From: an uncultured Candidatus Peregrinibacteria bacterium
GTDB lineage: Bacteria > Patescibacteriota > Gracilibacteria > Peribacterales > Peribacteraceae
Assembly (NCBI GenBank): GCA_937863435.1
Contig: CALMES010000147.1
Location: forward strand, 1,639 to 65,638
Direction: 5' to 3'
Length of the DNA: 64,000 bases
The position numbers were made by a program, and so were the translations under genes. Shown one piece after another: positions 21,994-62,270 of the stretch (within the stretch, counting starts at the first letter, position 1; every line of letters starts with the position of its first letter). Below the pieces are notes generated by a model. That model made no database searches and was not told the origin of the DNA. It saw nothing but the letters and a program-made list of their open reading frames with translations.

Positions 21994-22079
21994 GCCCGGG
22001 TGGCGAAATGGCAGACGCATCAGCCTTAGGAGCTGACGAGAGCAATCTCATGGAGGTTCAAGTCCTCTCCCGGGCACCA
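21994..22079 (+). tRNA. tRNA-Leu (anticodon UAG), class II with long variable arm, CCA encoded
   Basis: The acceptor stem is GCCCGGG/CCCGGGC. The anticodon stem TCAGC/GCTGA carries the loop CTTAGGA. The T arm is GGAGG-TTCAAGT-CCTCT. The 3-prime end is ACCA. Confidence 0.9.
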
Positions 22080-31822: not shown

Positions 31823-34800
31823 TTGCATTCTGGTCAAACATTCTTTACCCTTTCAGGTTATATTCTATTTCTTTCTTGTATTGCCATGTCCTGGTATCTC
31901 GTTTTTGCTCTCGCAGTAATCTTGTGTGCCTATTGTTGCAGGGCATCGGTTTCGGCTTTGATTTATTCACGCAGGGTGCAAAGCATTGTTGTCATGAGCT
32001 CGGTATTGCTTTCAACAGTTCTTATCCCGGTGGGTCCGCATGCATCCCTGGAAGGGATTGGTGCCGATGCATCTCTGGAGACGGTTGATATGTCGCTGCA
32101 AGCACCGCCTTCCGACACAGCAATGCCTGAAAGCGCGCAAGAGATCTCCAGCTCAGATTCATCATCTCTGGTGCCGGCTTACTTCGATCCCTCTATGGCC
32201 TCACGGCAAAGCCAGGCTTCCAGTCTGTCTGGCGACTCATCCTGGACGGGGTCGTCATCGCAAGAGTCGGTTTCCGCTTCTTCGCCCTCCTCGTCGGATG
32301 CGGGCTTTGCAGGCTCTCTGCAGTCAGCCTATTTCAGTTCGGCATACTCCGATGACAGCGTCTCTTCCCGATCGTCCGAGGAGGCGGCTTTCCCGTCACT
32401 TTCATCGAGTTTCTCATCTGAAAATTCCGACGCGCAGGCCGCAACACCGGCCGACAGGGCAGAAGAAGTGGCGAGCGAGCCAGAGGAGCTGCGCGCAGGG
32501 GATGAGTGGGTGCTGCTGGTCGGACCGAATTCTGTTGCAGACAATAAAGAGGTACAGGCCATGATGCGGCGGATTGATGCTGAGCCGAAAGTGACAGATT
32601 CGTCGTTTTCTCTTTCCAATTCGGTTTCAAAAATTTTTCAAAATATTGCCGGCATAGAGTCGAGCACGCCTGCGGAATTGAGCGGCGATCGCGCAGCTCT
32701 GATGCGCAAGGTGAATGATGTAAAAAAGACCAACCAAGCCGGACGCAATACTGCTGTCGCCGAGCTGGCGGGAAGGCTGGGACGAACGGTTGCCTCTCTG
32801 CGCGCCCCTGGTTCGCTGAGCATTGACATTGTGCTGAACGCAGAGAAAATCCGTTTGCCGAAAGACCGCATTGCAGAGCTGAATGCAGAGTTGCAGGGGT
32901 ACAGAATAGTTGAACTGGATGCGGTGAAGGCAACGTTGAGCCAGTCAGTGCCGCAAATACAGGCAAATACCGTATGGACCAAAAAATCCGATAACAACAG
33001 CTGCACGCCAGGCTCGGCTGATTGTATTACCGGAAGAGGGATGAAAATTGCGGTTATTGATACCGGCATTGATTACAGACATGTGGAGTTTGGTGCGTGC
33101 GCGACACTTGGCAATTGCCCTAAAATTGCCGATGCGTACGATTTTGTGAATAACGACAGCGATCCTGTCGATGACAACGGTCATGGTACGCACGTAGCCG
33201 CTATTGCGGCTGGAAATGGTGTGCTTAAAGGAGTAGCGCCGGATGCGAGGCTGTATGTGTATAAAGTGCTAGGTGCGAATGGCGAAGGGGACGGAGGATT
33301 GGTAGCGGCTGCAATTGATAGGGCTCTTGATCCTGACAACAATGGTGACTTGAGCGATCGTGCCGACGTTATCAATTTAAGCCTGAACTCCGCCACGGAA
33401 CATAATCCAAACGACTTGATGAGCCTAGAGGTAGATGCTGCCGCTCAATTGGGTGCAATAGGGGTCGTAGCGGTTGGCAACAATGGTGCCGGGGGATTCA
33501 TTTATTCGCCTGCCAATGCGCGCGAAGGCATCGCGGTTGGGGCTGTTGATAAATTGGGAAATTTGTATTCCTATTCAACGCGCAGCAAAACATCATTGTA
33601 TATTCCAAAGCCAGATATTGTAGCGCCGGGAGTCGGGATTTGTGCAGCCAGAGCAGCCGGCCAGCTGAACGGCGCTCAGTCATGTATCGACAGCAACCAT
33701 GTCTATCTGGATGGTACCAGCATGGCTGCTCCGCATGTTGCGGGGGTGGCAGCACTTATGCGCCAGGCTCATCCTTCGTGGACGCCGCAGCAAGTAAAAG
33801 CTGCCTTGCGCGCTACTGCAGGAGGTGCCAATGCATTCAGCCTCAACGCATTTTCATCGCAGGGGTTCGGATTGATCAATGCGGCGCAGGCGGTGTTTCA
33901 GGCTACGCCTGTTGATGCGGTGACGCTGTCAACCGCAGGCGGCGTGAGCGGGATTATCAATGTAACTGGCGCAGTGAATGCGTCGTCGATCGCCTCTTAT
34001 TCGCTGTGGATGCAGTCATTTAAAACCGGCATCCGGACCAATCTTTTTACATCTTCCGCTCCGCCGAGCGGAAACATCTTGATGTCGGGATTTGATACAC
34101 ATGCGCTGGGCATTGGTGATCAGTATTATCTGGTCCTTGAGGCGACAGACACTGCCAGTCGTATCAGTCGCGATGTCTCCATTATCTATTCAAACAATAC
34201 CGTACCATCTCCGGCGGATTTGCAGCTGACTGTTGTCGGCGACTCTGCATGGGTGCCGACGGGAACGGGCACCTATCAAATGACGGTCAAAAATCTGGAT
34301 GCGTCAGTGACGGCTAATGCGGTCGTTGTGACGGCGGATCTCGACACGCATTCCGCCTTTGTGCCCGCCCTTTCCAGCCCCGAGTGCGTGACGACAGGGG
34401 CGCACGATGCAGTGTGCACGATTGCCGCGCTTGCGCCGGGGGCCAGCAAGAAATTCACTGTCAAATTTGCCCCGCAAGACAGCAAGGTCACATGTGATCC
34501 TACCATCACCAATGTGGCAAACGCGTGGTCTGATAACTATGATTCCGCTCCCGCCAACAATCAGAATATTGTGACCAATACAGCGTTCCGCTGCCCTGCA
34601 GATCTTTCCATCACGCGCACAGGCTCGGGCTCCATTCAGCGCGGCATGATCGGCGGCTACACAATGGTTGTTGCCAATGCGGGGCCGGGCAACGCATCCA
34701 GCGTAGCCGTGACAGACATTCCTCCAACGACAGACGCGGTATTTCAGCCGGCACTCAGTTCCGGCTCATGTCATGTGGTGGGACAGAACGTGGTGTGTAA

Positions 34801-37800
34801 CAATTTTGGCTTGAATGCGGGGGCATCGCAGACGCTGACCATCGCATACCTCATTCCGGCCGTTGCAAACTGCTCACCTGAAAATGCGCAGACATCTGCG
34901 GCAATTTCATCCTCCACTTTCGATTGGTATCTGTCCAACAATACAAGCAGTACTCTGCAGACAAGCATCACATGTCCTGCCGGCAGCACAGCAGACGTGT
35001 CGCTGACGGCCAGCGGATCAAACACGTCCGTTCTGGGATCGCCGTTTGTTTTTGCCGCCACGGCTTTCAACAAAGGACCTCAGACTGCTGCAAATACTGT
35101 TTTGACGGTGACACTTCCCGCTGGCGCGGCCATTGTTTCCACATCGGATGCCACCTGCGGTCTTTCCAACGGCGTTATAGCCTGCCCTGCCACGGCGCTT
35201 GCGGTGAACCAGTCAAAAACCCTGGTGCTTCAGCTGCGTCTGCCGCTGGGCGGGGCCTGTCCGGTGTCTGCGACGACAGTGGCAAACGTTTCTGCGGCGA
35301 CGTCGGATCCTGTTTCGGGCAATAATACTGCCTCAGCAACCACCGGCGTCAGCTGCCCGCCTGCCGACCTTTCTCTGGTACGCACCGGCTCCGCCAGCAT
35401 TGTTCGTGGTTCTGCCGGCGCGTTTGTGATCACAGTCACCAACAACGGTCCGGGAGACGCATCGAACGTGTCGATAGCCGATAACCCGCCTGCCGATTTT
35501 GTCTATCAGACATCTGCAGGATGCCGGCTCGTCGGTTCGACGCCGGTGTGTGACGGTTTCAATCTTGCTGCGGGTGCCAGCAAAACATTCACGATCCGTT
35601 ACAGCGTTCCGGCCATTGCCAATTGCAGTCCGAAGAATGTGACGTCCTCGGCGACGGTCACTTCCTCGGCAACAGACCCGGATGCTGCGAATAATACCAC
35701 GGCTGGCCTGGTCACCGTTATTGTCTGCCCTCCTCCGTCTGCAGACTTGGCGGTGGCTGCAACGGGAACTGCGGCCGTACTTCCGGGAAACAATTTCTCG
35801 GTCTATGTTTCTGTAAAAAACACGGGTCCCAACATCGCAAACAGTGTCGTTCTGAAAAATCAGATGCCTGCCGGCGCCGTATTTGTCTCGAGTTCCGATG
35901 TCAATTGTATCGATATTGCGGGAGTGGTGACTTGCGGGTCGGTCAGCCTGTCGGTCAATGAGACGAAGGCAACAACCATCCGGATGAAAATGCCTCAATC
36001 TTTCGCTTGTCCTGCAACAGTAACAAACACCGTTTCCGCCACGTCGAGTACGGATGATGCGAATACCACGAATAATACCGCCGGTTTTTCCACCTCAATC
36101 CTCTGTCCGTCCGCCGATCTTTCTGTTGTGCGCACGGGCATTACGCCTGTCATGAGAGGGGATTCATCCGCGTTTGTCGTGACGGTTACCAACAACGGTC
36201 CGGATACGGCTACAGCCGTCGCGCTTACAGACAATCTGCCGTCTGATTTTCAGTTTCAGGCATCCGCGGGCTGTCAGGCAGTGAATGGCAAGGTGTTGTG
36301 CAGCGGCTTCGATCTGCCCTCCGGTTCGTCCAAAACTTTCACGGTGAACTATAAGGTTGCCACGACAGCCCCGTGCTCACCCGGGTCGGTCACATCGTTT
36401 GCCAGCGTCACATCAGCGGTTGCGGATCCGTCTGGCGCCAATAATGCCACCAATGTCCTGACCACGCAGATCGTGTGTCCTCAGGCAGACCTGATGGTTA
36501 CAGCCACAGGCTCGACTGCTTCTATTGTAGGATTGCCATACGGCATTGCGGCAACCATGAAAAATAACGGTCCTCAGACAGCGCCAGACGCCGTTCTCGC
36601 CATTGCGCTTCCTGCAAATGCGATCATCTTGTCTACGTCCGATCCCACGTGTTTGCCTGGCGCGCAGAACATTGTGACCTGCGCTGCGGTCAGCCTGACG
36701 AGCGGACAGACAAAGACGCTCTCTCTCCAGATCAGGCTGCCGGCTAGCGCTGCCTGTCCCGTCACCGTCGAGGCTGTTGCGTCAGCATCCTCGTCGACCA
36801 ATGACCCGGTGCCCGGCAATAACACGTCCATCGTGCAGACAGTAAACGGATGCCCGAAGGCGGATGTACTGACAACAGTCCAGGGGCCTGCAGAAATTGT
36901 GATGGGCGCAGTGCTTACGGTCACCGGATCCGTCGTCAACGCAGGCCCGCAGGCCGCCGATGCGGTCAGGATTTCGTTCACGCTGCCGCCGAATGCAACA
37001 GTGCTGTCCGTCACAGATGCGGCATGTACGGCATCGGCCAGTCTTTTGACCTGCTTGCCGACCACTCTTGACCTGAATCAGGTGAAGAAAGTCGGCGTCC
37101 GATACAGACTGCCGCTCACTGCCTCCTGTCCGGCGACTATGCCTACCGTCGTTTCGGCGACCGCGGCAACTCTCGATCCGGTTGGTGCCAATAATGCCGC
37201 AACGCTCAGTACCAGCTTTGCCTGTCCGCCTGCTGATATTTCTGTCACGCGCACCTCAAGCGGCAGTGTCATGCGCGGGGATGTCTTTACCGTCACACTC
37301 ACGTCCGCCAACAAAGGTCCCGGCCCTGCCAACAATGTGGTTCTCACCGATATGCCCGGATCAGGCCTTGGTTTTGTCTCCGGCACAACTGGCTGCAGCG
37401 CCTCGGGTCAGCTGGTTATCTGCGTCATCGGAAACCTCGCGTCCGCAAGCACGAAAACTTTTACTTTGCGCTACAACACCACTCCGCCCGCACTTTCGTG
37501 CACGAACACCGTTGTCCAGTCGTTTGCCAAAGTGACAACATCGTCCCCTGATCCCAATACATCTGACAACACCGCAGGTCCGGTGAATGTCGCTGTCAAT
37601 TGTCCGCAGGCGGATGTGTCGATTGCCACACCCGGTCCGGCTACCGCATTTGTTGGTGACACATTTTATGCCACCTACACCGTCAAAAATAATGGTCCGT
37701 ATGCCGCTGACAATGTCAGGTTTACCGGCAGCATTCCTGCCGGAGGCGTTCTCATCGGATCGGCACCGGCAGGTTGCACCATAACAGGCAACCAGTTGCA

Positions 37801-39112
37801 GTGCATGGTGGGTTCACTGGCGCTGAATCAGTCCAAAACCATCACGTATCCGTATACGTTTTCCGGCAGCGGCTTCGCCTGTCCGGCAACACTCGACAAT
37901 ATCGCCACAGTCACCGCAGCCACGTCGGATCCGGTGAGCGCCAACAATTCCGTCAATCAGAAAAACACGGTGCTGTGTCCGTCTGCAGACATATTTGTTG
38001 GCGTGAATACATCGCCGACCGCCGTTACGGACGGCGTCTTTTCGGTGACATTTGCCGCCAAGAATACCGGGCCAAGCGTTGCGCAGAATGTCGTGCTCAG
38101 CAACCTTCTCCCTGAGAACAGCGCATTTGTCAGCTCGTCGGATGCATCCTGTACGTATAACGCCGCCGCACGCAAAGTGACCTGCGCGTCCGTCAGCCTG
38201 GCAAAAGATGCCGTGAAATCCGTGACGATCCAGCTGAAAATGCTTGCAGGTTCCCAGTGTCCGGTTGCCGTCGGCAACGTGGTGACTGCCTCCAGTGCCA
38301 CAGCCGATCCCAATGCTGCCAATAATACCGTGACCGGCTGGACGGGCATTACCTGTCCGATTGCAGATCTGCAGGCGTCCATTTCCGGCATGAGTGCCGG
38401 CAAAGCTGAGGATGTATTCACTACCACTCTCACAGCCAAAAACAACGGTCCTGCCAATGCATACGGCGTTGTGCTCGGGGCACAGCTGCCGGCCGGTGCG
38501 GTGCTCATGGGAATTTCGGATCCCACCTGTCAGCTTAACGGTCAGAATATTTCCTGTGCGCCGACCGCACTGCCTGCCAGTCAGGTGAAGACGGTGTACA
38601 TGAACTTCAAGATGCCAGCAGGCTCCAGTTGTCCGGTGAGCCTTAAGACGGTGGTGACGGTTTCCAGCTCTCTTGTCATCGATCAGGTTGATAACAACTG
38701 GGACATTCTCTGGGGAACGCTGCAATGCCCGCCGCCTGTTCCGCCAAACCTGGCGGCTGTCGCGTCCGGTCCTGCCTCCGTCGCCAAAAACAAAGCAGCG
38801 TCCTATACCTTCGGCGTCGTCAATACATCTCCGGCCAATGCCGCCAAAGCGGATCCTTCCACCCTTGTCGTGATTTTGCCGGCTAATACCGTTTTCACCG
38901 CCAAGAATTCCAGCCCGCTGTGTTCACTTGCATCTCCCACTTCCATTTATTGCAAGGCACCGGCTATGGCGAGCGGTCAGTCGACCCTTTTCCCGGTGAT
39001 CCTGACTCGCAAATCGGCAGGAAAGGTTGCTTTTAACGGCGTGCTTGTGCCCGGAGGCGCAGACACCAACAGCGGCGACAATCAGGCAGTCATCAACACC
39101 ACTATCAAGTAA
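31823..39112 (+). CDS. giant surface protein: TM anchor, Ser-rich linker, subtilisin-like S8 protease, about 13 DUF11/CARDB-like repeats
   Basis: The catalytic triad contexts are VIDTGID, HGTHVAAIAAG and GTSMAAPHVAG. Modules starting CP.ADL and containing N(N/K)GP(G/Q) repeat through the rest of the protein. The start is uncertain (TTG 31823 or ATG 31886). Confidence 0.85.
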   Translation: MHSGQTFFTLSGYILFLSCIAMSWYLVFALAVILCAYCCRASVSALIYSRRVQSIVVMSSVLLSTVLIPVGPHASLEGIGADASLETVDMSLQAPPSDTAMPESAQEISSSDSSSLVPAYFDPSMASRQSQASSLSGDSSWTGSSSQESVSASSPSSSDAGFAGSLQSAYFSSAYSDDSVSSRSSEEAAFPSLSSSFSSENSDAQAATPADRAEEVASEPEELRAGDEWVLLVGPNSVADNKEVQAMMRRIDAEPKVTDSSFSLSNSVSKIFQNIAGIESSTPAELSGDRAALMRKVNDVKKTNQAGRNTAVAELAGRLGRTVASLRAPGSLSIDIVLNAEKIRLPKDRIAELNAELQGYRIVELDAVKATLSQSVPQIQANTVWTKKSDNNSCTPGSADCITGRGMKIAVIDTGIDYRHVEFGACATLGNCPKIADAYDFVNNDSDPVDDNGHGTHVAAIAAGNGVLKGVAPDARLYVYKVLGANGEGDGGLVAAAIDRALDPDNNGDLSDRADVINLSLNSATEHNPNDLMSLEVDAAAQLGAIGVVAVGNNGAGGFIYSPANAREGIAVGAVDKLGNLYSYSTRSKTSLYIPKPDIVAPGVGICAARAAGQLNGAQSCIDSNHVYLDGTSMAAPHVAGVAALMRQAHPSWTPQQVKAALRATAGGANAFSLNAFSSQGFGLINAAQAVFQATPVDAVTLSTAGGVSGIINVTGAVNASSIASYSLWMQSFKTGIRTNLFTSSAPPSGNILMSGFDTHALGIGDQYYLVLEATDTASRISRDVSIIYSNNTVPSPADLQLTVVGDSAWVPTGTGTYQMTVKNLDASVTANAVVVTADLDTHSAFVPALSSPECVTTGAHDAVCTIAALAPGASKKFTVKFAPQDSKVTCDPTITNVANAWSDNYDSAPANNQNIVTNTAFRCPADLSITRTGSGSIQRGMIGGYTMVVANAGPGNASSVAVTDIPPTTDAVFQPALSSGSCHVVGQNVVCNNFGLNAGASQTLTIAYLIPAVANCSPENAQTSAAISSSTFDWYLSNNTSSTLQTSITCPAGSTADVSLTASGSNTSVLGSPFVFAATAFNKGPQTAANTVLTVTLPAGAAIVSTSDATCGLSNGVIACPATALAVNQSKTLVLQLRLPLGGACPVSATTVANVSAATSDPVSGNNTASATTGVSCPPADLSLVRTGSASIVRGSAGAFVITVTNNGPGDASNVSIADNPPADFVYQTSAGCRLVGSTPVCDGFNLAAGASKTFTIRYSVPAIANCSPKNVTSSATVTSSATDPDAANNTTAGLVTVIVCPPPSADLAVAATGTAAVLPGNNFSVYVSVKNTGPNIANSVVLKNQMPAGAVFVSSSDVNCIDIAGVVTCGSVSLSVNETKATTIRMKMPQSFACPATVTNTVSATSSTDDANTTNNTAGFSTSILCPSADLSVVRTGITPVMRGDSSAFVVTVTNNGPDTATAVALTDNLPSDFQFQASAGCQAVNGKVLCSGFDLPSGSSKTFTVNYKVATTAPCSPGSVTSFASVTSAVADPSGANNATNVLTTQIVCPQADLMVTATGSTASIVGLPYGIAATMKNNGPQTAPDAVLAIALPANAIILSTSDPTCLPGAQNIVTCAAVSLTSGQTKTLSLQIRLPASAACPVTVEAVASASSSTNDPVPGNNTSIVQTVNGCPKADVLTTVQGPAEIVMGAVLTVTGSVVNAGPQAADAVRISFTLPPNATVLSVTDAACTASASLLTCLPTTLDLNQVKKVGVRYRLPLTASCPATMPTVVSATAATLDPVGANNAATLSTSFACPPADISVTRTSSGSVMRGDVFTVTLTSANKGPGPANNVVLTDMPGSGLGFVSGTTGCSASGQLVICVIGNLASASTKTFTLRYNTTPPALSCTNTVVQSFAKVTTSSPDPNTSDNTAGPVNVAVNCPQADVSIATPGPATAFVGDTFYATYTVKNNGPYAADNVRFTGSIPAGGVLIGSAPAGCTITGNQLQCMVGSLALNQSKTITYPYTFSGSGFACPATLDNIATVTAATSDPVSANNSVNQKNTVLCPSADIFVGVNTSPTAVTDGVFSVTFAAKNTGPSVAQNVVLSNLLPENSAFVSSSDASCTYNAAARKVTCASVSLAKDAVKSVTIQLKMLAGSQCPVAVGNVVTASSATADPNAANNTVTGWTGITCPIADLQASISGMSAGKAEDVFTTTLTAKNNGPANAYGVVLGAQLPAGAVLMGISDPTCQLNGQNISCAPTALPASQVKTVYMNFKMPAGSSCPVSLKTVVTVSSSLVIDQVDNNWDILWGTLQCPPPVPPNLAAVASGPASVAKNKAASYTFGVVNTSPANAAKADPSTLVVILPANTVFTAKNSSPLCSLASPTSIYCKAPAMASGQSTLFPVILTRKSAGKVAFNGVLVPGGADTNSGDNQAVINTTIK

Positions 39113-56047: not shown

Positions 56048-56779
56048 TCATCGAATATCGGTATGATTCTTGGTAATAGGCCGTTTGAGTACTGCTTCCG
56101 CCAGATAATTGGCTACATAGGTGGCGCCAGAGCGTACAAAACCTTGATTTTTGAGTCTGCGAGCGGATGTATAGTTGTAGAAAGACGGATGAAACCGCAC
56201 TTTCCCAACCGCATGCAGGCGGCGAGCCAAATCGGCATCGTCGCCGTAGAACGTAATCGTCGTATCGAAGCCGTCGATGGCTTCCAGAGCAGCGCGGCGA
56301 ACGGCGAAGTTGCCACCCACAACCATGTATCGTGTGAGCAGGTAAGCGGGAAATGCCAGGCAGTTCCAGTACATTTTCACACATGCGTTCTGCCATTTAC
56401 GCAGATCTGTAAAGCGGTACGGCCCGCTTAAGCAGGCGAGTTTTGGCTGCCTGGAGAATTGCTTGTTGATGAAGGCAAACCACTGCGCCGACACCATGCT
56501 GTCGGCATCGATAAACGCCAGAATATTGCCGCTCGATTCGGTAAATCCGCGCTGACGGGCAGCGGACGTGCCCTTGATTTTTTCTTCCACCAGACGAATG
56601 CCGGGCATGGAGCGTACAATCGAAGCGGTTGAGTCTGTGCTGTTGTTATCCACGACAATTACTTCGCATACGTTGGGCGTTTTGGCAGCAAGAATACTCT
56701 GGAGGCATTTCCCGATGTATTGCTCCTCATTGTATGCCGGCACGATGACGCTGATGCGCAGCTGGATCATGGGAGGCAT
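56048..56779 (-). CDS. family 2 glycosyltransferase
   Basis: The motif ISVIVPAYNEEQYIGKCLQSI and the DAD motif (FIDADS) are present. Confidence 0.85.
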   Translation of the reverse strand: MPPMIQLRISVIVPAYNEEQYIGKCLQSILAAKTPNVCEVIVVDNNSTDSTASIVRSMPGIRLVEEKIKGTSAARQRGFTESSGNILAFIDADSMVSAQWFAFINKQFSRQPKLACLSGPYRFTDLRKWQNACVKMYWNCLAFPAYLLTRYMVVGGNFAVRRAALEAIDGFDTTITFYGDDADLARRLHAVGKVRFHPSFYNYTSARRLKNQGFVRSGATYVANYLAEAVLKRPITKNHTDIR

Positions 56780-56946
56780 TGTGCGAGAGGAGTGGGAGGA
56801 TAGCAAGTACGGTAATTACCAATTACCAAAGACCAACTACCAAACATCAATTATTATACTGTTGGGAGTTGGCGTATTGGCAGTTGGTAGTTTTCCAGAA
56901 AGCATCTTCTACAGCCACCGCTCCTGTATCATGTTATTCTTTCACC

Positions 56947-57387
56947 ATGAAGGTTGTCGCCAAAAACCGTCGGGCACTGTTCGATTTTGAAATTCTGGAA
57001 ACGATCGAAGCAGGGATGATTCTCACTGGCCAAGAGGCAAAGTCGGTGCGGATGGGTCATGCCAATTTGGCCGGAGCGTACGTGTCTTTTTTGCACGGGA
57101 AGCCGATTCTCAAAAACGCCAGCATTTCGCCCTACGCGTTTGCATCGAATCTCGATGGCTATGATCCTGGTCGTGAACGTCCTCTGCTCCTTAAAAAGCG
57201 GGAGATTGAGAAATTGAATGCCCAGACAGCCGAGCGGGGCATCTCTATTGTGCCGCTGGAAATCCGTGCGGGGAAGTTCATTAAAATTGCACTTGGCATT
57301 GGTCGCGGCCAGAAGCGACTCGATAAGCGGCAGAAGATCAAAGAACGCGATATGGATAGAAGAATGAGGACAGGAAGGGAATTGTAG
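56947..57387 (+). CDS. smpB: SsrA-binding protein
   Basis: The N-terminus is MKVVAKNRRALFDFEILETIEAGMILTGQEAKS. TATTCT lies 6 nt upstream of the ATG. Confidence 0.9.
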   Translation: MKVVAKNRRALFDFEILETIEAGMILTGQEAKSVRMGHANLAGAYVSFLHGKPILKNASISPYAFASNLDGYDPGRERPLLLKKREIEKLNAQTAERGISIVPLEIRAGKFIKIALGIGRGQKRLDKRQKIKERDMDRRMRTGREL

Positions 57388-57389
57388 TA

Positions 57390-57530
57390 AATTCCAAGAT
57401 ACAAGATACAAATTTCAAAAAGAACCAATTATCAATGATCAGCTATAACAACTATTGGAACTTGCTCTCTGTTATTTTTTGATGCTTGTTTCTTGTATTT
57501 TGATGCTTTTTTATCTTGTATCTTGGAATT
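57390..57530. repeat. 141-bp element with 19-bp perfect terminal inverted repeats of CAAGATA words
   Basis: AATTCCAAGATACAAGATA at 57390-57408 pairs with TATCTTGTATCTTGGAATT at 57512-57530. Confidence 0.85.
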
Positions 57531-57568
57531 TTAAGCTTGAGTCTGTACATTCGTCTACACTCTCATCT

Positions 57569-58165
57569 ATGGACCTCCTCCCGTCTCAAATCAAGCGCAC
57601 GATCGAAGAGTTTACCAAGCTGCCCGGCATTGGGCCGAAGTCTGCTGAACGCCTCACGTTTCATTTACTGCGCTCGCGCAAGGCGTCGCCCGAGACGCTC
57701 GGTCGCGCACTTTTAGAGCTTAAAAATCAACTGCAGTACTGCCGCCAGTGCCAGATGGTTGCAACCGAAGAACTGTGTCCGGTGTGTCGCGAAACAAGTC
57801 GCGACAGTTCCGCGATTCTCGTTGTGGAAGAACCGCTGGATGTGATCGCGTTTGAAAAATCCGGCTACAAAGGATTGTACCACGTGCTCCACGGTGTATT
57901 GTCCCCGATCGACGGCATGGGCCCGGAGCAGCTCAAGCTGCGCGAGCTTGTTGACCGGACAAAAGCGGGCGGCGTGAAAGAGCTGATTATCGCCACGAAC
58001 CTGGATATCGAAGGCGAAGCGACAGCTACCTACATTCGCCAGCAGTTATCATCTGTTGTTCCATCTATTTCACGATTGGCTCATGGACTCCCGCGAGGTG
58101 CAGACATTGAGTTTGCGGATCAAGTGACGCTGCGAGAGGCGATTGCGGGGAGAAGGGTGATGTGA
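57569..58165 (+). CDS. recR: recombination protein RecR
   Basis: The HhH segment LPGIGPKSAERLTFHLL, the zinc finger C-x2-C...C-x2-C and a Toprim domain are present. TACACT lies 7 nt upstream. Confidence 0.9.
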   Translation: MDLLPSQIKRTIEEFTKLPGIGPKSAERLTFHLLRSRKASPETLGRALLELKNQLQYCRQCQMVATEELCPVCRETSRDSSAILVVEEPLDVIAFEKSGYKGLYHVLHGVLSPIDGMGPEQLKLRELVDRTKAGGVKELIIATNLDIEGEATATYIRQQLSSVVPSISRLAHGLPRGADIEFADQVTLREAIAGRRVM

Positions 58166-58322
58166 GGCATTGGGTAAAATTCGAAGATCAAAAAACGAAG
58201 AACCAGACAAATTTTAAGTAAGAAATTTGAAAATACTATTTTGTTAAATCGGGTCATTTGTTTCAAATTTATGCTTTCGTTCTTGTTTCAAATTTGGTTC
58301 TTTGACCTTCGAATTTTTCACA

Positions 58323-59381
58323 TTAGAGTGACTTTAGATATCTTTCAAAAATCCGCTGCAACACTTTCATGCTTTCCAGATCAATCCACTCCGTATCCTG
58401 ATGATGTCCGCCGCCCAAGCAAATCGTCACAATGCCGGGAATATTGTGCGGGGTTAAGAAACGTCCATCCGAAGCACCCCGCTCTACTGTCAGATTAACC
58501 GGCTTTCCCAATTCTGCTTCCGATGCCGCAATGTACGCCGCAATCAGCGGATGAGTCGGATCTGTACGGAACACCGGTTCTTCGTCGATGTACTCGTACT
58601 CTCCCTGGCGAAAACATTGTGCTGCAACAGCCTTTACTTTTTCATGATGAGCCGTGCGAATATCGATTTTTGCGTCGCAGAGATCGGGTGTGACATTCAG
58701 TGCGATGCCGGCACGAATGTCGACAATGCTCATGATCGTTTCGGGAATTTTGGCGATCTCATTTTTGAATATGTCAAAGTCCTTAATGAACGAATGAATC
58801 GCGTTGTCGCCATCTTCCGGGCGACTGCTGTGAGCCGCTTTGCCGCGGCGCAGAATGTCGAGGCGCAGAATGCCGTACTGCAGTTTTACCACCGAAAAAT
58901 TGCCGCCGCCATCGGGCAAAATGGCACATTCGGGGCGAAATCCTTCGTTATCGAGCAAGTACTTGACGCCGTCTTTTCCGCCGATTTCCTCGTCGGTTGT
59001 CAGCATAATGCCAAGGCTTGTAGCTGAGCCGGACTCCACATGCGCACGAAACGCATTGAGCGCCACTGCCGCCGGGCCTTTCATGTCGTACACGCCGCGG
59101 CCGAATAATTTTCCATCTTTCATGCGCGGAACGAACGCTTGCGGGGGAGCGGGCACGACATCCAGGTGTGCGATGAACATAATTTTCGGTGTCAGTTTTT
59201 CTTTGTATGACACAACCATGGAGTGATGTCCGTTACGTTCGTAGCGATGAAATTCCACTGGCAAATCACTCAAATACTGTTCGCAAAACAGCAGTATTTC
59301 CTTGCAGGCTTTTATATCCGTTGATACCGATGGAATGAGAATCATCTGAGGTAAAAGCTGGTCGAGCGGGAGAGAGGACAT
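58323..59381 (-). CDS. M20 family metallopeptidase (ArgE/DapE-like)
   Basis: The motifs AHLDVVPA, GRGVYDMKG and TTDEEIGG are present. The start is uncertain (59381 or 59408). Confidence 0.8.
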   Translation of the reverse strand: MSSLPLDQLLPQMILIPSVSTDIKACKEILLFCEQYLSDLPVEFHRYERNGHHSMVVSYKEKLTPKIMFIAHLDVVPAPPQAFVPRMKDGKLFGRGVYDMKGPAAVALNAFRAHVESGSATSLGIMLTTDEEIGGKDGVKYLLDNEGFRPECAILPDGGGNFSVVKLQYGILRLDILRRGKAAHSSRPEDGDNAIHSFIKDFDIFKNEIAKIPETIMSIVDIRAGIALNVTPDLCDAKIDIRTAHHEKVKAVAAQCFRQGEYEYIDEEPVFRTDPTHPLIAAYIAASEAELGKPVNLTVERGASDGRFLTPHNIPGIVTICLGGGHHQDTEWIDLESMKVLQRIFERYLKSL

Positions 59382-59499
59382 GGAAAAAGACGAAAATGTG
59401 TACGGCATCTTTGTACGATGCTTAAGCCCTAAACGCAAGTATTTAGCAGAATTATTTGCAATTTATTTAAGTTTCTCTACGATGTAGCGCACATCATCG

Positions 59500-59607
59500 T
59501 CCTATCAAGAGAGATGCAAAGGGAACTGGCCCGTTATATGCATCCCCCAACTCTTCGCTTCGCGAAGTAAGTGGGAATCCAGCCCTCGCATAGAGGGAAA
59601 GATAGCT
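59500..59607 (+). promoter_or_regulatory. SAM-I (S-box) riboswitch aptamer
   Basis: CCTATCAAGAGAGATGCAAAGGGAACTGGCCCG...GGGAATCCAGCCCTCGCATAGAGGGAAAGATAG matches the S-box core by eye (TATCAAGAG, GGGA, CTGGCCC, AATCCAGC, AAAGATAG). P1 is CTATC/GATAG and P2 is GATGCA/TGCATC. Confidence 0.8.
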
Positions 59608-59620
59608 TCCGTGTTATTGC

Positions 59621-59649
59621 CTCTTTCTCTCGCAGGAAGAGTTTTTTTT
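59621..59649 (+). terminator. riboswitch expression-platform terminator
   Basis: CTCTTTC-TCTCGCA-GGAAGAG is followed by T8. The aptamer 3-prime segment GAAAGA (59597-59602) can pair with TCTTTC (59622-59627) as an antiterminator. Confidence 0.7.
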
Positions 59650-59806
59650 ATTACTTCTTACCGAGGGACGAGATGGCCACATGATTTATTTCTTCCAAAC
59701 ATGCTCGATGCCTATGTGCATGCGAGCGCTGCAGGGGCAGGCAATCGCCTGAATAACCCCATCCCTTGCAGCGACTGGGTGCTTTTATCAACTTTTTATT
59801 TTATGT

Positions 59807-60751
59807 ATGAACAGCAAAGAATTTTCCTATAATGAGTCTCATGATCCGAAAAGAAAATATTTTTTCTCAGATACATTTGGAGGTAGCGCAGAGTGGGATC
59901 CTCTTTCATTGCCGGACCCGGATGCGCAGATATCAACCGATTTTTCGGGATCTCCGCTTACTCCTTGCGAGCGGCGTTTTGATACGTATGGACAGGAGCG
60001 TGTGACGGATCATCTCTTGCGTCTTATTTTGCAGCAATTTGATGAATTGGCTCGTAGGCCAGACATATCTGGCGGCAGGAGGCAACAGGCTTTACGTCTT
60101 GGAACTGGAGTTTTTATAAATTATGCTCCTCGTACCAGTCACAGCAACGCTCAGCCTTTTTATGTGGCGACTGCTCGTGGTGGAAATATCCGGATTGTTT
60201 CTACTCCTCTTGAAGCCTTGTCTGCAATTAAAGGAGAAATCGAAACTCTTCACCACTTGCCTAATCCAGAACGAGGGGAGGCGGACAATGGTTTGTATGA
60301 CTGGACTCAGCAATTTCGATCGAAATTAACGCCAATTCTCTTGGATCCTGATCATGGACTTGATCTCATTGAAGATGATCCTGCAGATATTCCAGCGCCA
60401 GATAATCGTTGGCATATTGCATTTGTCGATCGATTCGGAAATGTGATTTCGTATACGGATAACCCTGAAGATCAATGGGGGGAAATAGAGACATTGGCTG
60501 ATCGCGTTGGTGATTCGCGTCGGGAAATACGGCTGCTACTTGATGGTCATGAAACTGTCCCTTTGACACTCGCAACATCACTGGGTTCAGCGCACCCGGG
60601 TGGCGTATCGATCTATCGAAATGGTGGTATTGATTTAGTGAGAAAGTGGCAGGTAGGAGAAACGGCTTCCGAGAGACTTGCTCAGTCTGCGTTTAGAAAA
60701 TTAGGCAATCCAACGATAGGTACAACCATAGAAATTGCTCCTAATGCCTAA
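59807..60751 (+). CDS. divergent DUF62-like protein (SAM hydroxide adenosyltransferase/chlorinase-fluorinase fold), function unknown
   Basis: The C-terminal half contains the family hallmark VDRFGNVISY and a GG.SIY..GG.DLV-like tail. The N-terminal catalytic motifs (TDFG, DPGVG, FHGRD) are not conserved. Confidence 0.45.
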   Translation: MNSKEFSYNESHDPKRKYFFSDTFGGSAEWDPLSLPDPDAQISTDFSGSPLTPCERRFDTYGQERVTDHLLRLILQQFDELARRPDISGGRRQQALRLGTGVFINYAPRTSHSNAQPFYVATARGGNIRIVSTPLEALSAIKGEIETLHHLPNPERGEADNGLYDWTQQFRSKLTPILLDPDHGLDLIEDDPADIPAPDNRWHIAFVDRFGNVISYTDNPEDQWGEIETLADRVGDSRREIRLLLDGHETVPLTLATSLGSAHPGGVSIYRNGGIDLVRKWQVGETASERLAQSAFRKLGNPTIGTTIEIAPNA

Positions 60752-62270
60752 AAGCTCTCGTCCCCGTCAGTACCATCGCAATTCCCAGTTTCTCTGCCGC
60801 CGCAAATACTTCTGCATCTTTCACCGATCCGCCGGGCTGGATAATGGCGACTACTCCGGCCTTGGCGGCTTCGGTGAGGGCGTCTGGGAACGGAAAGAAA
60901 GCGTCGCTTGCGAGTACCGATCCTTGCACACGTTCACCCGCGCGCTTGATGGAAATCCATGTCGAATCCACTCGGCTCGTCTGGCCAGCGCCGATGCCGA
61001 CAGTCACGCCGTCTTTGGCGAGGACAATGGCATTGGATTTTGCATGCTTCACCACTTTCCAGGCGAAGAGCAGATCCTGAATTTGGGCAGGAGTTGGCTT
61101 CTTGCTCGTGATGAATTGCAAGTCTGCTTCGTTAATCTGCTTGCTATCCGCACTCTGTACCAGCATGCCGTCGAATGCGCTGCGATAGACGACGCGCTCT
61201 TTTTTCTCGAGCAGCGGCAATTCGATCACACGGATGTTTGGCTTCTGTTTGAGAATTTCCAGTACACCAGCTTCGTAACTTGGCGCCAGAATGATCTCGG
61301 TAAAAATTTTCTGATCAATGATTTTTTTGGCGATCACTTCCGTGCATTCTTTGTTGAGGGCAATGATGACGCCGAAAGCCGAGAGGCGATCGGTGTCGTA
61401 GCCTTTTTGGAACGCGACATTGATATCGCTGTCGGAGGCAATGCCGCTCGGGTTGGCATGTTTTACAAAGACCGCGGTCGGCGCTGTAAAATCACAGGCC
61501 ATTTGCCACGCGGCGTCACTGTCTAAAATATTCAGATAACTCAGCTCTTTTCCCTGCAGCACTTTCCAGCGCACCGGCTTGCCGTCCAGTTCGTAAAACT
61601 TGCCCCACTGATGCGGATTTTCGCCGTAGCGCAGCACGCGGCCGTTTGTGAGTTGTAGACTTTGATTGGCTCCCGTTGTAAAAAACTCCGCAATCAGTCC
61701 ATCGTAGCGTGCCGTGTGGGCGAATACTTTGGCAGCCAGCTGCTTGCGCAGTTCCGGCGATGTGTCGCCATTTTTTTTGATCTCATCAATGACGCGGCTG
61801 TAATCAGCCGGGTCACAAATGACGGTCACAGACGCATGATTTTTTGCCGCTGACCGGAGCATCGTAGGTCCGCCAATATCGATCTGCTCGACCATCTCTT
61901 TTTCAAAATCAGCTCCCGATTTTCCGGCTTTCTTGCCCTGTTCCAGCGTTTGTTCAAACGGATATAAATTCACGACAATCATGTCGATTGCATCGATACC
62001 CAGTTTTTTTGTTTCGGCTTCGTGCTCGCTATCGCCACGGCGATAGAGAATGCCGCCCATCAGCAGCGGATGCATTGTTTTGACTCTGCCAGACAGGCAC
62101 TCGGGGAAATGCGTAATGTCTTCAACAGAGGTTGTTTTGATGTCTTTTTCGGCCAGAAATTTGGCAGTTCCGCCGGTTGAAATAATCTCAAATCCCAGAG
62201 ATATGAGCTGGTTTGCCAGCATATCAATCTGCTGTTTGTCGGACACCGAAAGGAGCGCGCGCTTGGCCAT
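60741..62270 (-). CDS. purH: bifunctional AICAR transformylase / IMP cyclohydrolase
   Basis: The N-terminus MAKRALLSVSDKQQI...STGGTAKFL is the MGS-like domain. An AICARFT domain follows. Confidence 0.95.
   Translation of the reverse strand: MAKRALLSVSDKQQIDMLANQLISLGFEIISTGGTAKFLAEKDIKTTSVEDITHFPECLSGRVKTMHPLLMGGILYRRGDSEHEAETKKLGIDAIDMIVVNLYPFEQTLEQGKKAGKSGADFEKEMVEQIDIGGPTMLRSAAKNHASVTVICDPADYSRVIDEIKKNGDTSPELRKQLAAKVFAHTARYDGLIAEFFTTGANQSLQLTNGRVLRYGENPHQWGKFYELDGKPVRWKVLQGKELSYLNILDSDAAWQMACDFTAPTAVFVKHANPSGIASDSDINVAFQKGYDTDRLSAFGVIIALNKECTEVIAKKIIDQKIFTEIILAPSYEAGVLEILKQKPNIRVIELPLLEKKERVVYRSAFDGMLVQSADSKQINEADLQFITSKKPTPAQIQDLLFAWKVVKHAKSNAIVLAKDGVTVGIGAGQTSRVDSTWISIKRAGERVQGSVLASDAFFPFPDALTEAAKAGVVAIIQPGGSVKDAEVFAAAEKLGIAMVLTGTRAFRH

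What the first reader, a model, noticed from the sequence alone, without database searches (positions are those of the whole stretch)
59478..60751. SAM-I OFF riboswitch controlling a divergent DUF62-like (SAM-cleaving enzyme family) gene
A well-formed S-box aptamer at 59500-59607 is followed by a terminator at 59621-59649, and an antiterminator alternative exists (GAAAGA at 59597-59602 with TCTTTC at 59622-59627). This is the classic SAM-represses design. The only downstream gene (59807-60751) carries the DUF62 hallmark VDRFGN and a matching C-terminal barrel segment. It lacks the canonical N-terminal catalytic motifs. DUF62 enzymes (SAM hydroxide adenosyltransferase, SalL, fluorinase) bind SAM, and their reaction is known to be reversible in vitro. 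Repression by SAM is the logic expected for a SAM-supplying or methionine/adenosine-salvage function rather than a SAM-degrading one. This may therefore be an uncharacterised SAM-related enzyme. A candidate promoter hexamer TACGAT lies at 59478-59483.
Basis: partly seen in the sequence, partly recalled or inferred. Interest (0 to 1): 0.65.

Follow-up and report, generated by a model that had tools for sequence, protein, structure and literature searches.

The report
SAM riboswitch before DUF62-like gene
A convincing SAM-sensing RNA off-switch sits in front of a gene for a very divergent relative of the SAM-cleaving DUF62 enzymes in an uncultured Peribacteria bacterium; it is the only functional clue to a small uncharacterised enzyme clade, but the pairing is seen in this one lineage only.

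Summary
Rfam's SAM-I model matches 59499-59608 (+) at 44.1 bits. That is 0.3 bits under the curated cutoff, but E = 8.8e-7 for the whole window. 30 of 33 model pairs form and the pseudoknot is intact; only the P2 kink-turn departs from consensus. An intrinsic terminator (59621-59649) and a competing 10-bp antiterminator (59593-59602 / 59622-59631) give the classic SAM-OFF layout.

The sole downstream gene (59807-60751) belongs to the DUF62 superfamily. All 34 significant PDB fold matches are SAM hydrolases, chlorinases or fluorinase, and profile-profile probability is 94.7% over both domains. It keeps the adenosine-binding residues (D22, D208, FGN). It lacks the His-Arg-Asp water-activating triad that defines DUF62 hydrolases: the His position is an invariant Arg171, followed by Ser172.

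The clade is tiny (129 representatives among 1.84 billion), and every homolog whose source is named comes from Peribacteria, Peregrinibacteria or Patescibacteria.

The main caveat is that none of about 56 other homolog loci carries any riboswitch. The link is therefore lineage-specific, coincides with a local inversion, and has no covariation support. Control of the gene and a supply-side (methionine/adenosine salvage) role are inferred, not shown.

Verdict: a real SAM-I leader and a new regulon member; moderately interesting.

The parts
59455..59483 (+). Weak candidate sigma-70-like promoter: TTTGCA (59455-59460), 17-nt spacer, TACGAT (59478-59483). It would start transcription about 10 nt before the aptamer.
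   Evidence: Read from the sequence. It has 8 of 12 consensus matches, below the 9 of 12 needed by the scan, which reported no + strand promoter here. Unverified.
59499..59608 (+). SAM-I (S-box) aptamer. P1 is 59502-59506 / 59601-59605, plus a G-U pair at 59499/59608. P2 is 59511-59545, P3 is 59546-59575, P4 is 59578-59600. Pseudoknot: CUGG 59526-59529 with CCAG 59579-59582.
   Evidence: RF00162 at 44.1 bits, E = 8.8e-7 for the whole window. 30 of 33 model pairs are canonical. The P2 internal loop (AAA / GUUAUAU) lacks the consensus tandem G-A of the kink-turn (alignment).
59593..59631 (+). Antiterminator: a 10-bp helix, 59593-59602 (3' strand of P4 plus J4/1 and the first P1 bases) with 59622-59631 (5' strand of the terminator). 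It excludes both the closed aptamer and the terminator.
   Evidence: -11.3 kcal/mol. It is the MFE fold when the 5' part of the aptamer is left out.
59621..59649 (+). Intrinsic terminator: 8-bp hairpin 59621-59641 (3 G-C pairs, 5-nt loop) followed by a U8 tract.
   Evidence: Terminator scan. -7.8 kcal/mol.
59650..59806 (+). 157-nt spacer between terminator and start codon. It is strongly structured and its role is unknown. It has no obvious Shine-Dalgarno sequence.
   Evidence: MFE -50.8 kcal/mol, z = -3.0 against 200 dinucleotide-preserving shuffles. No Rfam match at E <= 10. There is an in-frame stop, so it is not an N-terminal extension of the ORF.
59807..60751 (+). Gene for a 314-aa protein of the DUF62 superfamily (two domains) that lacks the catalytic triad. 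Clade signature: S21-D22, N105-x-A107-P-R109, Q169-F-R171-S172, D208-R-F-G-N212, Y270-x-N272.
   Evidence: AF2 model pLDDT 90.5. All 34 Foldseek PDB hits at E <= 1e-3 are DUF62 enzymes. hhalign against a canonical DUF62 profile: 94.7% probability, E = 6.4e-8, 251 columns. PF20257 is hit by 30 of 30 close homologs. Conservation counts.

Best explanation
A SAM-I riboswitch works as a transcriptional OFF switch for a single-gene unit that encodes a divergent DUF62-superfamily enzyme.

Shown:
- The leader contains a full SAM-I aptamer, an intrinsic terminator, and a mutually exclusive antiterminator. The antiterminator uses the 3' strands of P4, J4/1 and P1.
- The only co-oriented downstream gene is the DUF62-like ORF. 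The flanking genes are divergent (an ArgE/DapE-type deacylase) and convergent (purH).
- The protein has the two-domain DUF62 fold and keeps the residues that hold the adenosine part of SAM in fluorinase and the SAM hydrolases. These are the Asp after strand 1, and the D...FGN and Y.N motifs.
- It has an invariant Arg-Ser where the hydrolases have the catalytic His-Gly.

Inferred mechanism:
- When SAM is plentiful it locks P1 and P4, the terminator forms, and transcription stops at about 59649.
- When SAM is scarce the antiterminator forms co-transcriptionally, and RNA polymerase reads through the 157-nt spacer into the gene.

Inferred function:
- All known S-box regulon members raise methionine or SAM supply, and Peribacteria cannot make most amino acids. 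The enzyme therefore most likely acts on the supply side.
- It would bind a 5'-substituted adenosine such as a SAM species (for example the inactive (R)-sulfonium epimer that canonical DUF62 enzymes clear) and release methionine and an adenosine derivative for re-use.
- Its nucleophile-activating chemistry would differ from the canonical triad.
For: Aptamer:
- RF00162 at 44.1 bits, E = 6.6e-9 locally and 8.8e-7 for the window.
- It is the only riboswitch-like hit in the window.
- 30 of 33 pairs are canonical, the J1/2, J3/4 and J4/1 sequences match consensus, and the pseudoknot is a perfect 4-bp CUGG/CCAG.

Expression platform:
- Terminator found by the scan.
- Terminator -7.8 kcal/mol against antiterminator -11.3 kcal/mol. 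The whole ON and OFF conformers are nearly isoenergetic (-22.8 against -24.2 kcal/mol for the named helices), as expected for a ligand-tipped switch.

Gene layout.

Protein:
- AF2 pLDDT 90.5.
- Top 34 PDB fold hits are all DUF62, SalL, ClA or fluorinase, aligned over the full length.
- PDB profile hit to 2zbu at E = 1.8e-6.
- PF20257 in 30 of 30 close homologs.
- hhalign 94.7% probability across both domains.
- Residue mapping with posteriors: D22 to FlA D16 (0.63); F170-R171-S172 to F-H-G of the hydrolases and F156-Y157-S158 of fluorinase (0.43); D208 and N212 to D210 and N215 (0.95-0.99).
- Same order of secondary-structure elements as a fluorinase model made the same way.
- R171 and S172 are invariant in 109 of 109 divergent members.

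Background:
- The triad defines the hydrolases and is absent from the halogenases (PMC10491745).
- DUF62 hydrolases are (R)-SAM-specific and are proposed to be a salvage route (bioRxiv 10.1101/2025.08.29.672840).
- Peribacteria lack most amino-acid biosynthesis (PMC4736985).
Against: - The score is 0.3 bits under Rfam's gathering cutoff.
- The P2 kink-turn lacks the consensus G-A pairs, which could weaken folding or SAM binding.
- There is no covariation evidence. The contigs that carry this exact protein gave 7 loci, and their leaders are all identical to the window's.
- No SAM riboswitch, and no other Rfam riboswitch, lies upstream of the homolog in about 56 other loci. These include the closest and syntenic relatives, whose upstream gaps of 217-277 nt would have room for one.
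- Predicted thermodynamics slightly favour the terminator conformer even without ligand. The best structures constrained to contain the terminator or the antiterminator are -46.1 and -42.5 kcal/mol. Switching would have to be kinetic.
- A 157-nt structured spacer separates the terminator from the ATG and could hold a second promoter.
- Repressing a SAM-consuming enzyme when SAM is high is not obviously useful if its job is to clear (R)-SAM.
- The enzymatic function is pure inference. The homologs' neighbourhoods contain no methionine or SAM genes.
Confidence: 0.55

Rival explanations
1. The riboswitch is real, but its pairing with this gene is a recent accident of rearrangement with little regulatory meaning. 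The DUF62-like gene would be driven mainly by its own promoter in the 157-nt spacer. The leader would then be an orphan that ends at its terminator, perhaps yielding a small SAM-responsive RNA like the Listeria SreA/SreB riboswitch-derived sRNAs.
For: The riboswitch is absent upstream of every other homolog examined. In syntenic relatives the gene faces recR-smpB. In the window it is inverted, with an M20 deacylase gene inserted, so the leader sits at a rearrangement junction. The spacer is long and structured. The terminator conformer is predicted to be slightly more stable even without ligand.
Against: The aptamer, pseudoknot, terminator and a 10-bp antiterminator are all intact and mutually consistent, which an unused element would not keep for long. 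No other + strand gene lies between the leader and the convergent purH. No promoter-like site was found in the spacer by the scan.
Confidence: 0.2
2. The aptamer is a decaying, non-functional relic: it looks like SAM-I but no longer binds SAM.
For: The score is below the curated cutoff. The kink-turn consensus is lost and two outer P1 pairs are mismatched. The element is confined to one lineage and has no covariation support.
Against: E = 8.8e-7 at window scale. All consensus junction nucleotides that line the SAM pocket are present, together with the A bulge and A-U pair in P3. P3 and P4 differ from consensus only by compensated pairs. The pseudoknot is better paired than the consensus. The expression platform is complete.
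Confidence: 0.1
3. The protein is simply a fast-evolving CPR ortholog of the canonical (R)-SAM hydrolase. It would have the same reaction and role, and the residue changes would be neutral drift or an equivalent way of activating water.
For: It has the same two-domain fold and the same adenosine-binding residues. The C-domain matches PF20257 across the clade. CPR proteins are often very divergent.
Against: The hallmark His is replaced by an Arg that is invariant in 109 of 109 members, next to an invariant Ser. The N105-x-A-P-R109 loop is equally fixed. This is a new, strongly selected signature rather than drift. By order of secondary-structure elements the catalytic Asp position is Ala107. 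Pfam's N-domain model PF01887 does not match any of the 30 close homologs or the 10 remote members tested. The review states that the triad is strictly conserved in the hydrolases.
Confidence: 0.2

Closest known systems
SAM-I / S-box riboswitch (Rfam RF00162), e.g. the Bacillus subtilis yitJ and metI leaders and the Thermoanaerobacter tengcongensis metF aptamer
   Same: Four-way junction P1-P4, consensus J1/2, J3/4 and J4/1, the P2-loop to J3/4 pseudoknot, and a terminator/antiterminator platform in which the antiterminator uses the 3' side of the aptamer. The logic is SAM-OFF.
   Different: The score is 0.3 bits under the Rfam cutoff. The P2 internal loop lacks the tandem G-A kink-turn consensus. 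The host is a CPR (Peribacteria) bacterium. The regulated gene is not a known S-box regulon member: no paper in the searched library mentions a SAM riboswitch together with DUF62.
DUF62 (R)-S-adenosyl-L-methionine hydrolases / SAM hydroxide adenosyltransferases (PH0463 1wu8, MJ1651 2f4n and 22uy, TM 2zbu, StDUF62, SaciSAMH)
   Same: Two-domain fold, the [ST]-D..G ribose-binding Asp after strand 1, and the D..FGN and Y.N motifs of the C-domain.
   Different: The His-Arg-Asp triad is not kept. The His position is Arg171, the following Gly is Ser172, and the Asp position is Ala107 by element order. Pfam PF01887 does not match. There is an extra helix at 89-97 and a longer N-terminus. Identity to PDB members is only 10-16%.
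SAM-dependent halogenases: fluorinase FlA (1rqp) and chlorinases SalL, ClA1 and ClA2
   Same: Same fold. They also lack the water-activating triad. Ser172 aligns with the fluoride-binding Ser158 of fluorinase (posterior 0.43). The halogenase reaction is reversible in vitro (established knowledge), which is the basis for the SAM-forming idea.
   Different: It lacks the fluorinase-specific insert (FlA 92-116) and has no Tyr77 or Thr80 equivalents. The S269-R270 methionine-carboxylate binders appear to be deleted. An invariant Arg lies in the nucleophile pocket. No halometabolite gene context is present.
S-box-regulated methionine-salvage genes (e.g. the Bacillus mtnKA and mtnWXBD operons; established knowledge)
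   Same: SAM-repressed expression of an enzyme that acts on an adenosyl-sulfur by-product to recover methionine would follow the same regulatory logic.
   Different: The enzyme family and chemistry are unrelated. The salvage role here is inferred from the regulation alone.

Membership tests
SAM-I riboswitch (RF00162) | Covariance-model score at or above Rfam's gathering cutoff (44.4 bits) | tested here: inconclusive
   44.1 bits, 0.3 bits short. E = 8.8e-7 for the whole window and 6.6e-9 for the region. The cutoff is an operational threshold, not a structural feature.
SAM-I riboswitch (RF00162) | Four-helix junction P1-P4 with consensus joining regions that line the SAM pocket | tested here: met
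   30 of 33 model pairs are canonical. J1/2 AAGAG, the P3 A-bulge with its A-U pair, J3/4 AA and J4/1 GAAAGAUA match consensus.
SAM-I riboswitch (RF00162) | Pseudoknot between the P2 loop and J3/4 | tested here: met
   CUGG 59526-59529 is perfectly complementary to CCAG 59579-59582.
SAM-I riboswitch (RF00162) | Kink-turn (tandem sheared G-A pairs) in P2 | tested here: not met
   The internal loop is AAA / GUUAUAU, where the consensus is gGA / uaUGAA. Other members of the clan (SAM-IV, SAM-I/IV) also lack a k-turn (my knowledge), so this lowers confidence without excluding function.
SAM-I riboswitch (RF00162) | Terminator and mutually exclusive antiterminator (OFF platform) | tested here: met
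SAM-I riboswitch (RF00162) | Selective SAM binding and SAM-dependent termination | not testable with these tools
   Needs in-line probing or ITC, and in-vitro transcription.
SAM-I riboswitch (RF00162) | Covariation or conservation of the element across related genomes | tested here: not met
   All 7 loci fetched for the exact protein have a leader identical to the window's. No SAM element lies upstream of homologs in about 56 other loci.
DUF62 superfamily (SAM_HAT_N PF01887 + SAM_HAT_C PF20257) | Two-domain DUF62 fold | tested here: met
   Foldseek: the 34 hits at E <= 1e-3 are all DUF62, SalL, ClA or FlA, best 7.9e-11, about 320 aligned columns, TM 0.42-0.60 depending on normalisation. The model has pLDDT 90.5.
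DUF62 superfamily (SAM_HAT_N PF01887 + SAM_HAT_C PF20257) | C-domain sequence match (PF20257) | tested here: inconclusive
   The window protein scores 12 bits against a 25.5-bit cutoff. However, 30 of 30 close homologs hit at E <= 1 (best 1.4e-6), and four of the ten remote members tested pass the cutoff. The family profile hits 2zbu at E = 1.8e-6.
DUF62 superfamily (SAM_HAT_N PF01887 + SAM_HAT_C PF20257) | N-domain sequence match (PF01887) | tested here: not met
   No hit in any of the 30 close homologs or the 10 remote members tested. The N-domain is linked only by fold and by profile-profile alignment.
DUF62 superfamily (SAM_HAT_N PF01887 + SAM_HAT_C PF20257) | Adenosine-binding residues: Asp of the [ST]-D-F-G motif, and D...FGN | tested here: met
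   D22 maps to FlA D16 (posterior 0.63). D208 and N212 map to D210 and N215 (0.95-0.99). Conserved in 104-109 of 109 members.
DUF62 SAM hydrolase (hydroxide adenosyltransferase) proper | Strictly conserved His-Arg-Asp water-activating triad (PMC10491745) | tested here: not met
   The His of T-F-H-G-R-D aligns with the invariant R171. The Asp of V-D-P-G aligns with A107 in the alignment that agrees with element order, although the posterior there is low (about 0.2-0.4).
DUF62 SAM hydrolase (hydroxide adenosyltransferase) proper | Hydrolysis of (R,S)-SAM to adenosine and methionine | not testable with these tools
   Needs an enzyme assay.
SAM-dependent halogenases (FlA / SalL) | Halide pocket (FlA S158, T80, Y77; SalL G131, Y70, W129) and a halometabolite pathway context | tested here: inconclusive
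   S172 aligns with FlA S158 (posterior 0.43). The other pocket residues are not matched, the neighbour is an Arg, and no pathway genes are nearby.

The most novel reading that the evidence does not exclude
The Peribacteria clade is a new functional class within the DUF62 superfamily. It would use its invariant Arg171-Ser172 / Asn105-x-Ala-Pro-Arg109 pocket to handle an anionic nucleophile or leaving group other than hydroxide. Physiologically it would run in the supply direction, either forming SAM by adenosyl transfer onto methionine (a MetK-independent route) or releasing methionine from a SAM-derived sulfonium. That would explain why this lineage placed it under a SAM-OFF riboswitch.
Probability: 0.15. 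Interest if true: 0.8.

Novelty: new variant of a known kind. Interest (0 to 1): 0.45.

Why it matters
The riboswitch itself is an ordinary class. Its value is as a functional pointer. It ties a small, unannotated enzyme clade found in CPR bacteria (no Pfam N-domain hit, no NCBIfam hit, no informative names) to SAM and methionine economy, in organisms that depend on external amino acids.

The clade keeps the adenosine-binding half of the DUF62 active site. It has replaced the catalytic triad with a different, absolutely conserved Arg-Ser signature. Only three adenosyl-transfer reactions from SAM are known (hydroxide, fluoride, chloride), so a fourth, or a physiological reverse reaction, would interest both enzymologists and biocatalysis groups that use these enzymes to regenerate SAM.

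It also documents a natural riboswitch in a CPR genome and a candidate new member of the S-box regulon. The limits are that the link exists in one lineage only and that nothing here has been tested biochemically.

Tried and rejected
1. Conservation of the riboswitch upstream of homologs was looked for in about 56 loci and not found. Methods were Rfam in permissive mode, Rfam in gathering mode, and my own SAM-I covariance model. A regex hit in L012 lay inside a coding gene.
2. A covariance model from a plain MAFFT alignment of three aptamers was abandoned because the helices were misaligned. It was replaced by an N-padded pairing taken from the cmscan alignment.
3. Direct sequence searches of the protein against the PDB found nothing. 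hhalign against a single fluorinase sequence recovered only the C-domain.
4. A homolog search seeded with fluorinase returned only close fluorinases and was of little use for a canonical profile. Canonical DUF62 genes were taken from plasmid/chromosome records instead.
5. The idea that the structured spacer is a relic of the 3' end of the gatA-like gene that precedes many homologs was tested. The short DNA matches are at chance level (E 0.5-2), and tblastn with 16 GatA proteins found no C-terminal similarity. Rejected.
6. MetK and AhcY signature motifs are absent from the 64-kb window, which is uninformative for the genome as a whole.
7. Gene neighbourhoods of homologs show no methionine or SAM genes.
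8. The PADLOC, PHROGs and NCBIfam libraries give no hit.
9. Source names for remote clade members are not available.
10. Literature searches for SAM riboswitch plus DUF62 or hydroxide adenosyltransferase, for riboswitches in CPR, and for Peregrinibacteria plus SAM found nothing relevant.
Full report
1. THE RNA ELEMENT IS REAL

Rfam in gathering mode reported only a tRNA in the window. A permissive scan of 59380-59860 matched the SAM-I model RF00162 end to end (model positions 1-108) at 59499-59608 (+). The score was 44.1 bits against a curated cutoff of 44.4, with E = 6.6e-9. Rescanning the whole 64-kb window against all 4227 families still gives E = 8.8e-7, and this is the only riboswitch-like match.

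Read against the model's structure line, 30 of the 33 base pairs are canonical. The exceptions are two mismatches at the outer end of P1 and one deleted pair at the P4 loop. The joining regions that form the SAM pocket match consensus: J1/2 AAGAG, the bulged A and A-U pair in P3, J3/4 AA and J4/1 GAAAGAUA. P3 and P4 differ from consensus only by compensated pairs. The P2-loop CUGG (59526-59529) is perfectly complementary to CCAG (59579-59582), which is the SAM-I pseudoknot.

The one real deviation is the P2 internal loop. It reads AAA / GUUAUAU instead of the consensus that carries the tandem G-A pairs of the kink-turn. This probably accounts for most of the missing score and is a genuine caveat for folding.

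2. THE EXPRESSION PLATFORM IS THE CLASSIC OFF DESIGN

- Terminator: an 8-bp hairpin at 59621-59641 followed by eight U was found by the terminator scan and has -7.8 kcal/mol.
It consumes the 3' strand of P4, J4/1 and the first bases of the P1 3' strand, as well as the 5' strand of the terminator.
- Energy balance: for the named helices, P2+P3+antiterminator is -22.8 kcal/mol and P2+P3+P4+terminator is -24.2 kcal/mol. The best structures forced to contain the antiterminator or the terminator are -42.5 and -46.1 kcal/mol. The two states are close, with a slight bias toward termination. That is compatible with a kinetically operated, ligand-tipped switch but does not prove one.
- Promoter: TTTGCA-17 nt-TACGAT (59455-59483) is present but weak, with 8 of 12 consensus matches, and the scan did not call it.

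3. WHAT THE SWITCH CAN CONTROL

The leader lies in a 368-nt divergent intergenic region. Upstream, on the minus strand, is an ArgE/DapE-type M20 deacylase (58323-59438). It scores below every NCBIfam curated cutoff, so its substrate is unknown. Downstream, on the plus strand, the only gene is the 314-aa ORF 59807-60751. That ORF overlaps by 11 nt the 3' end of the convergent purH (60741-62270). The unit is therefore monocistronic.

Between the terminator and the ATG lie 157 nt. They contain an in-frame stop, so they are not an N-terminal extension of the ORF. They fold unusually well: -50.8 kcal/mol, z = -3.0. I could not assign a role to this spacer. A promoter inside it would bypass the riboswitch.

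4. THE PROTEIN IS A DUF62-SUPERFAMILY MEMBER, BUT NOT A CANONICAL ONE

Evidence for the superfamily assignment:
- On its own the protein gives only a 12-bit, 16-residue Pfam match to SAM_HAT_C around VDRFGN, and no PDB hit.
- All 30 close homologs hit PF20257, best E = 1.4e-6.
- A 109-sequence profile hits Thermotoga 2zbu at E = 1.8e-6.
- An AlphaFold model of high confidence (pLDDT 90.5, pTM 0.89) finds in the PDB, at E <= 1e-3, 34 chains. All are DUF62 SAM hydrolases, SalL/ClA chlorinases or fluorinase, aligned over about 320 columns.
- A profile-profile comparison against a small canonical DUF62 profile gives 94.7% probability (E = 6.4e-8) over 251 columns spanning both domains. That profile used fluorinase, whose sequence I verified as identical to 1rqp, plus five canonical genes from Aeromonas, Listeria, Nonomuraea, E. 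coli and Enterococcus.

Residue mapping (posterior probabilities in brackets):
- S21-D22 aligns with the [ST]-D of the canonical TDFG motif, the ribose-binding Asp16 of fluorinase (0.63).
- D208 and F210-G211-N212 align with D210 and F213-G214-N215 (0.95-0.99).
- Y270 and N272 align with Y266 and N268 (0.99).
- F170-R171-S172 aligns with F-H-G of the hydrolases, and with F156-Y157-S158 of fluorinase (0.43).

The two HMM alignments disagree on the loop after strand 3. A fluorinase model made the same way shows the same element order as the family model: b1-a1-b2-a2-b3-loop-b4-b5-a3-b6-loop-a4. This supports the alignment in which A107-P108-R109 corresponds to D-P-G of the canonical VDPGVG..R loop.

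[quoted passage not shown] Here the His position is Arg, and probably the Asp position is Ala. This is not drift. Across 109 members that are only 19-53% identical to the window protein, R171, S172 and D208 are present in 109 of 109, N105 and R109 in 108 of 109, Q169 in 107 of 109, and D22 in 104 of 109.

The adenosine-holding Asp motif is kept and the triad is not.

5. THE CLADE IS SMALL AND CPR-RESTRICTED

An exhaustive profile search of 1.84 billion cluster representatives found 129 proteins at E <= 1e-3. All 37 genome hits are titled Peribacteria, Peregrinibacteria, Patescibacteria, or in one case simply 'bacterium'. NCBIfam, PADLOC and PHROGs have nothing for the protein.

6. THE RIBOSWITCH-GENE LINK IS LINEAGE-SPECIFIC

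The exact protein is on record on 11 contigs. The 7 loci fetched, which come from different samples, all carry an intergenic region identical to the window's. There is therefore no variation to test for covariation.

I fetched 50 loci encoding homologs plus contigs for four more of the closest homologs. None has a SAM riboswitch or any other Rfam riboswitch:
- Permissive Rfam scans of 19 + 6 loci.
- Gathering-mode scans of the rest.
- My own SAM-I covariance model over all of them, with filters off for the closest ones.

Many distant homologs lie 100-170 nt downstream of a gatA-like amidase gene. The closest relatives have the order SIMPL-domain gene, then this gene, then recR and smpB on the opposite strand, with upstream gaps of 217-277 nt and no riboswitch. 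In the window the gene is inverted relative to smpB-recR and the M20 gene lies between them. The leader therefore sits at a rearrangement junction. Neighbourhoods elsewhere (pyrF, aromatic amino-acid and riboflavin genes, amidase) give no methionine or SAM hint.

7. MOST LIKELY MECHANISM, AND WHAT IS INFERRED

Shown:
- A SAM-I aptamer with a complete OFF platform, directly upstream of a single-gene unit.
- That unit encodes a triad-less protein of the DUF62 superfamily that keeps the adenosine-binding residues.

Inferred:
- SAM binding stabilises P1 and P4, the terminator forms, and transcription ends near 59649.
- At low SAM the antiterminator forms and the gene is expressed.
- Every known S-box target raises methionine or SAM supply (established knowledge).
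- Canonical DUF62 enzymes are (R)-SAM-specific hydrolases proposed as a salvage route (bioRxiv 10.1101/2025.08.29.672840).
- Peribacteria cannot make most amino acids (PMC4736985).
- The best reading is therefore a supply-side enzyme that recovers methionine and an adenosine moiety from a SAM-type sulfonium, using a nucleophile pocket different from the canonical one.

I put about 0.55 on this package. Confidence is much higher for 'real SAM-I leader' and 'DUF62-superfamily protein' (about 0.9 each), and much lower for the specific reaction (about 0.25).

Rivals:
- The pairing is an accident of the rearrangement, with the gene driven from the spacer (0.2).
- The aptamer is a decayed relic (0.1).
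- On the separate question of which reaction the enzyme catalyses, it may simply be an (R)-SAM hydrolase in disguise (0.2).

8. NOVELTY AND SCORE

The riboswitch is a new member of a very well-known class. The protein is a new, sharply defined variant within a known superfamily. The combination is not mentioned in the searched literature. Because the association is confined to one lineage and nothing has been tested biochemically, I rate interest at 0.45.

The most novel reading not excluded is a fourth type of adenosyl-transfer chemistry, or a physiological SAM-forming reaction. I give it about 0.15 probability, and it would merit about 0.8 interest if true.

Noticed in passing
window 59650-59806: The 157-nt spacer between the riboswitch terminator and the start codon folds into a multi-hairpin structure of -50.8 kcal/mol (z = -3.0 against dinucleotide-preserving shuffles). 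It has no Rfam match, no obvious Shine-Dalgarno sequence, and no significant similarity in other loci. It could be a second regulatory element or could hide a promoter.
   Followed up: partly
window 56779-62270 compared with L069, L071, L074: In the closest relatives the DUF62-like gene converges on recR-smpB. In the window it is inverted, and an ArgE/DapE-type M20 deacylase gene lies between it and recR. The riboswitch therefore sits at a rearrangement junction.
   Followed up: partly
window 60741-60751: The stop-proximal 11 nt of the DUF62-like ORF overlap the 3' end of the convergent purH gene, so no terminator can lie between the two genes.
   Followed up: no
L010, L012-L016, L019, L021, L022, L024, L025, L028, L033, L036, L045, L067: In the more distant branch of the clade the gene lies 100-170 nt downstream of, and on the same strand as, a 484-530-aa gatA-like amidase gene. 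This is a recurrent arrangement that suggests co-transcription.
   Followed up: partly
L035 and L037 (both from MAG CAYWKJ01): One Peribacteria MAG carries two paralogs of the clade on different contigs (36% and 33% identity to the window protein).
   Followed up: no
alignment A1, homologs P0002-P0007, P0009, P0016: A subset of homologs has an N-terminal extension of about 40 residues (roughly '..PELLTHVPQP..') that is absent from the window protein. Its function is unknown.
   Followed up: no
window 21994-22076: The only tRNA in the window is 83 nt long with a long variable arm (type II; 56 bits).
   Followed up: no
window 31823-39112: A single ORF of 2429 aa lies here. It is reminiscent of the very large extracellular proteins described for Peribacter genomes (PMC4736985).
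   Followed up: no
window 58323-59438 (-): The M20 deacylase divergent from the riboswitch scores below every NCBIfam curated cutoff (best match: DapE-like, 136 bits against a cutoff of 381), so its substrate is open.
   Followed up: partly
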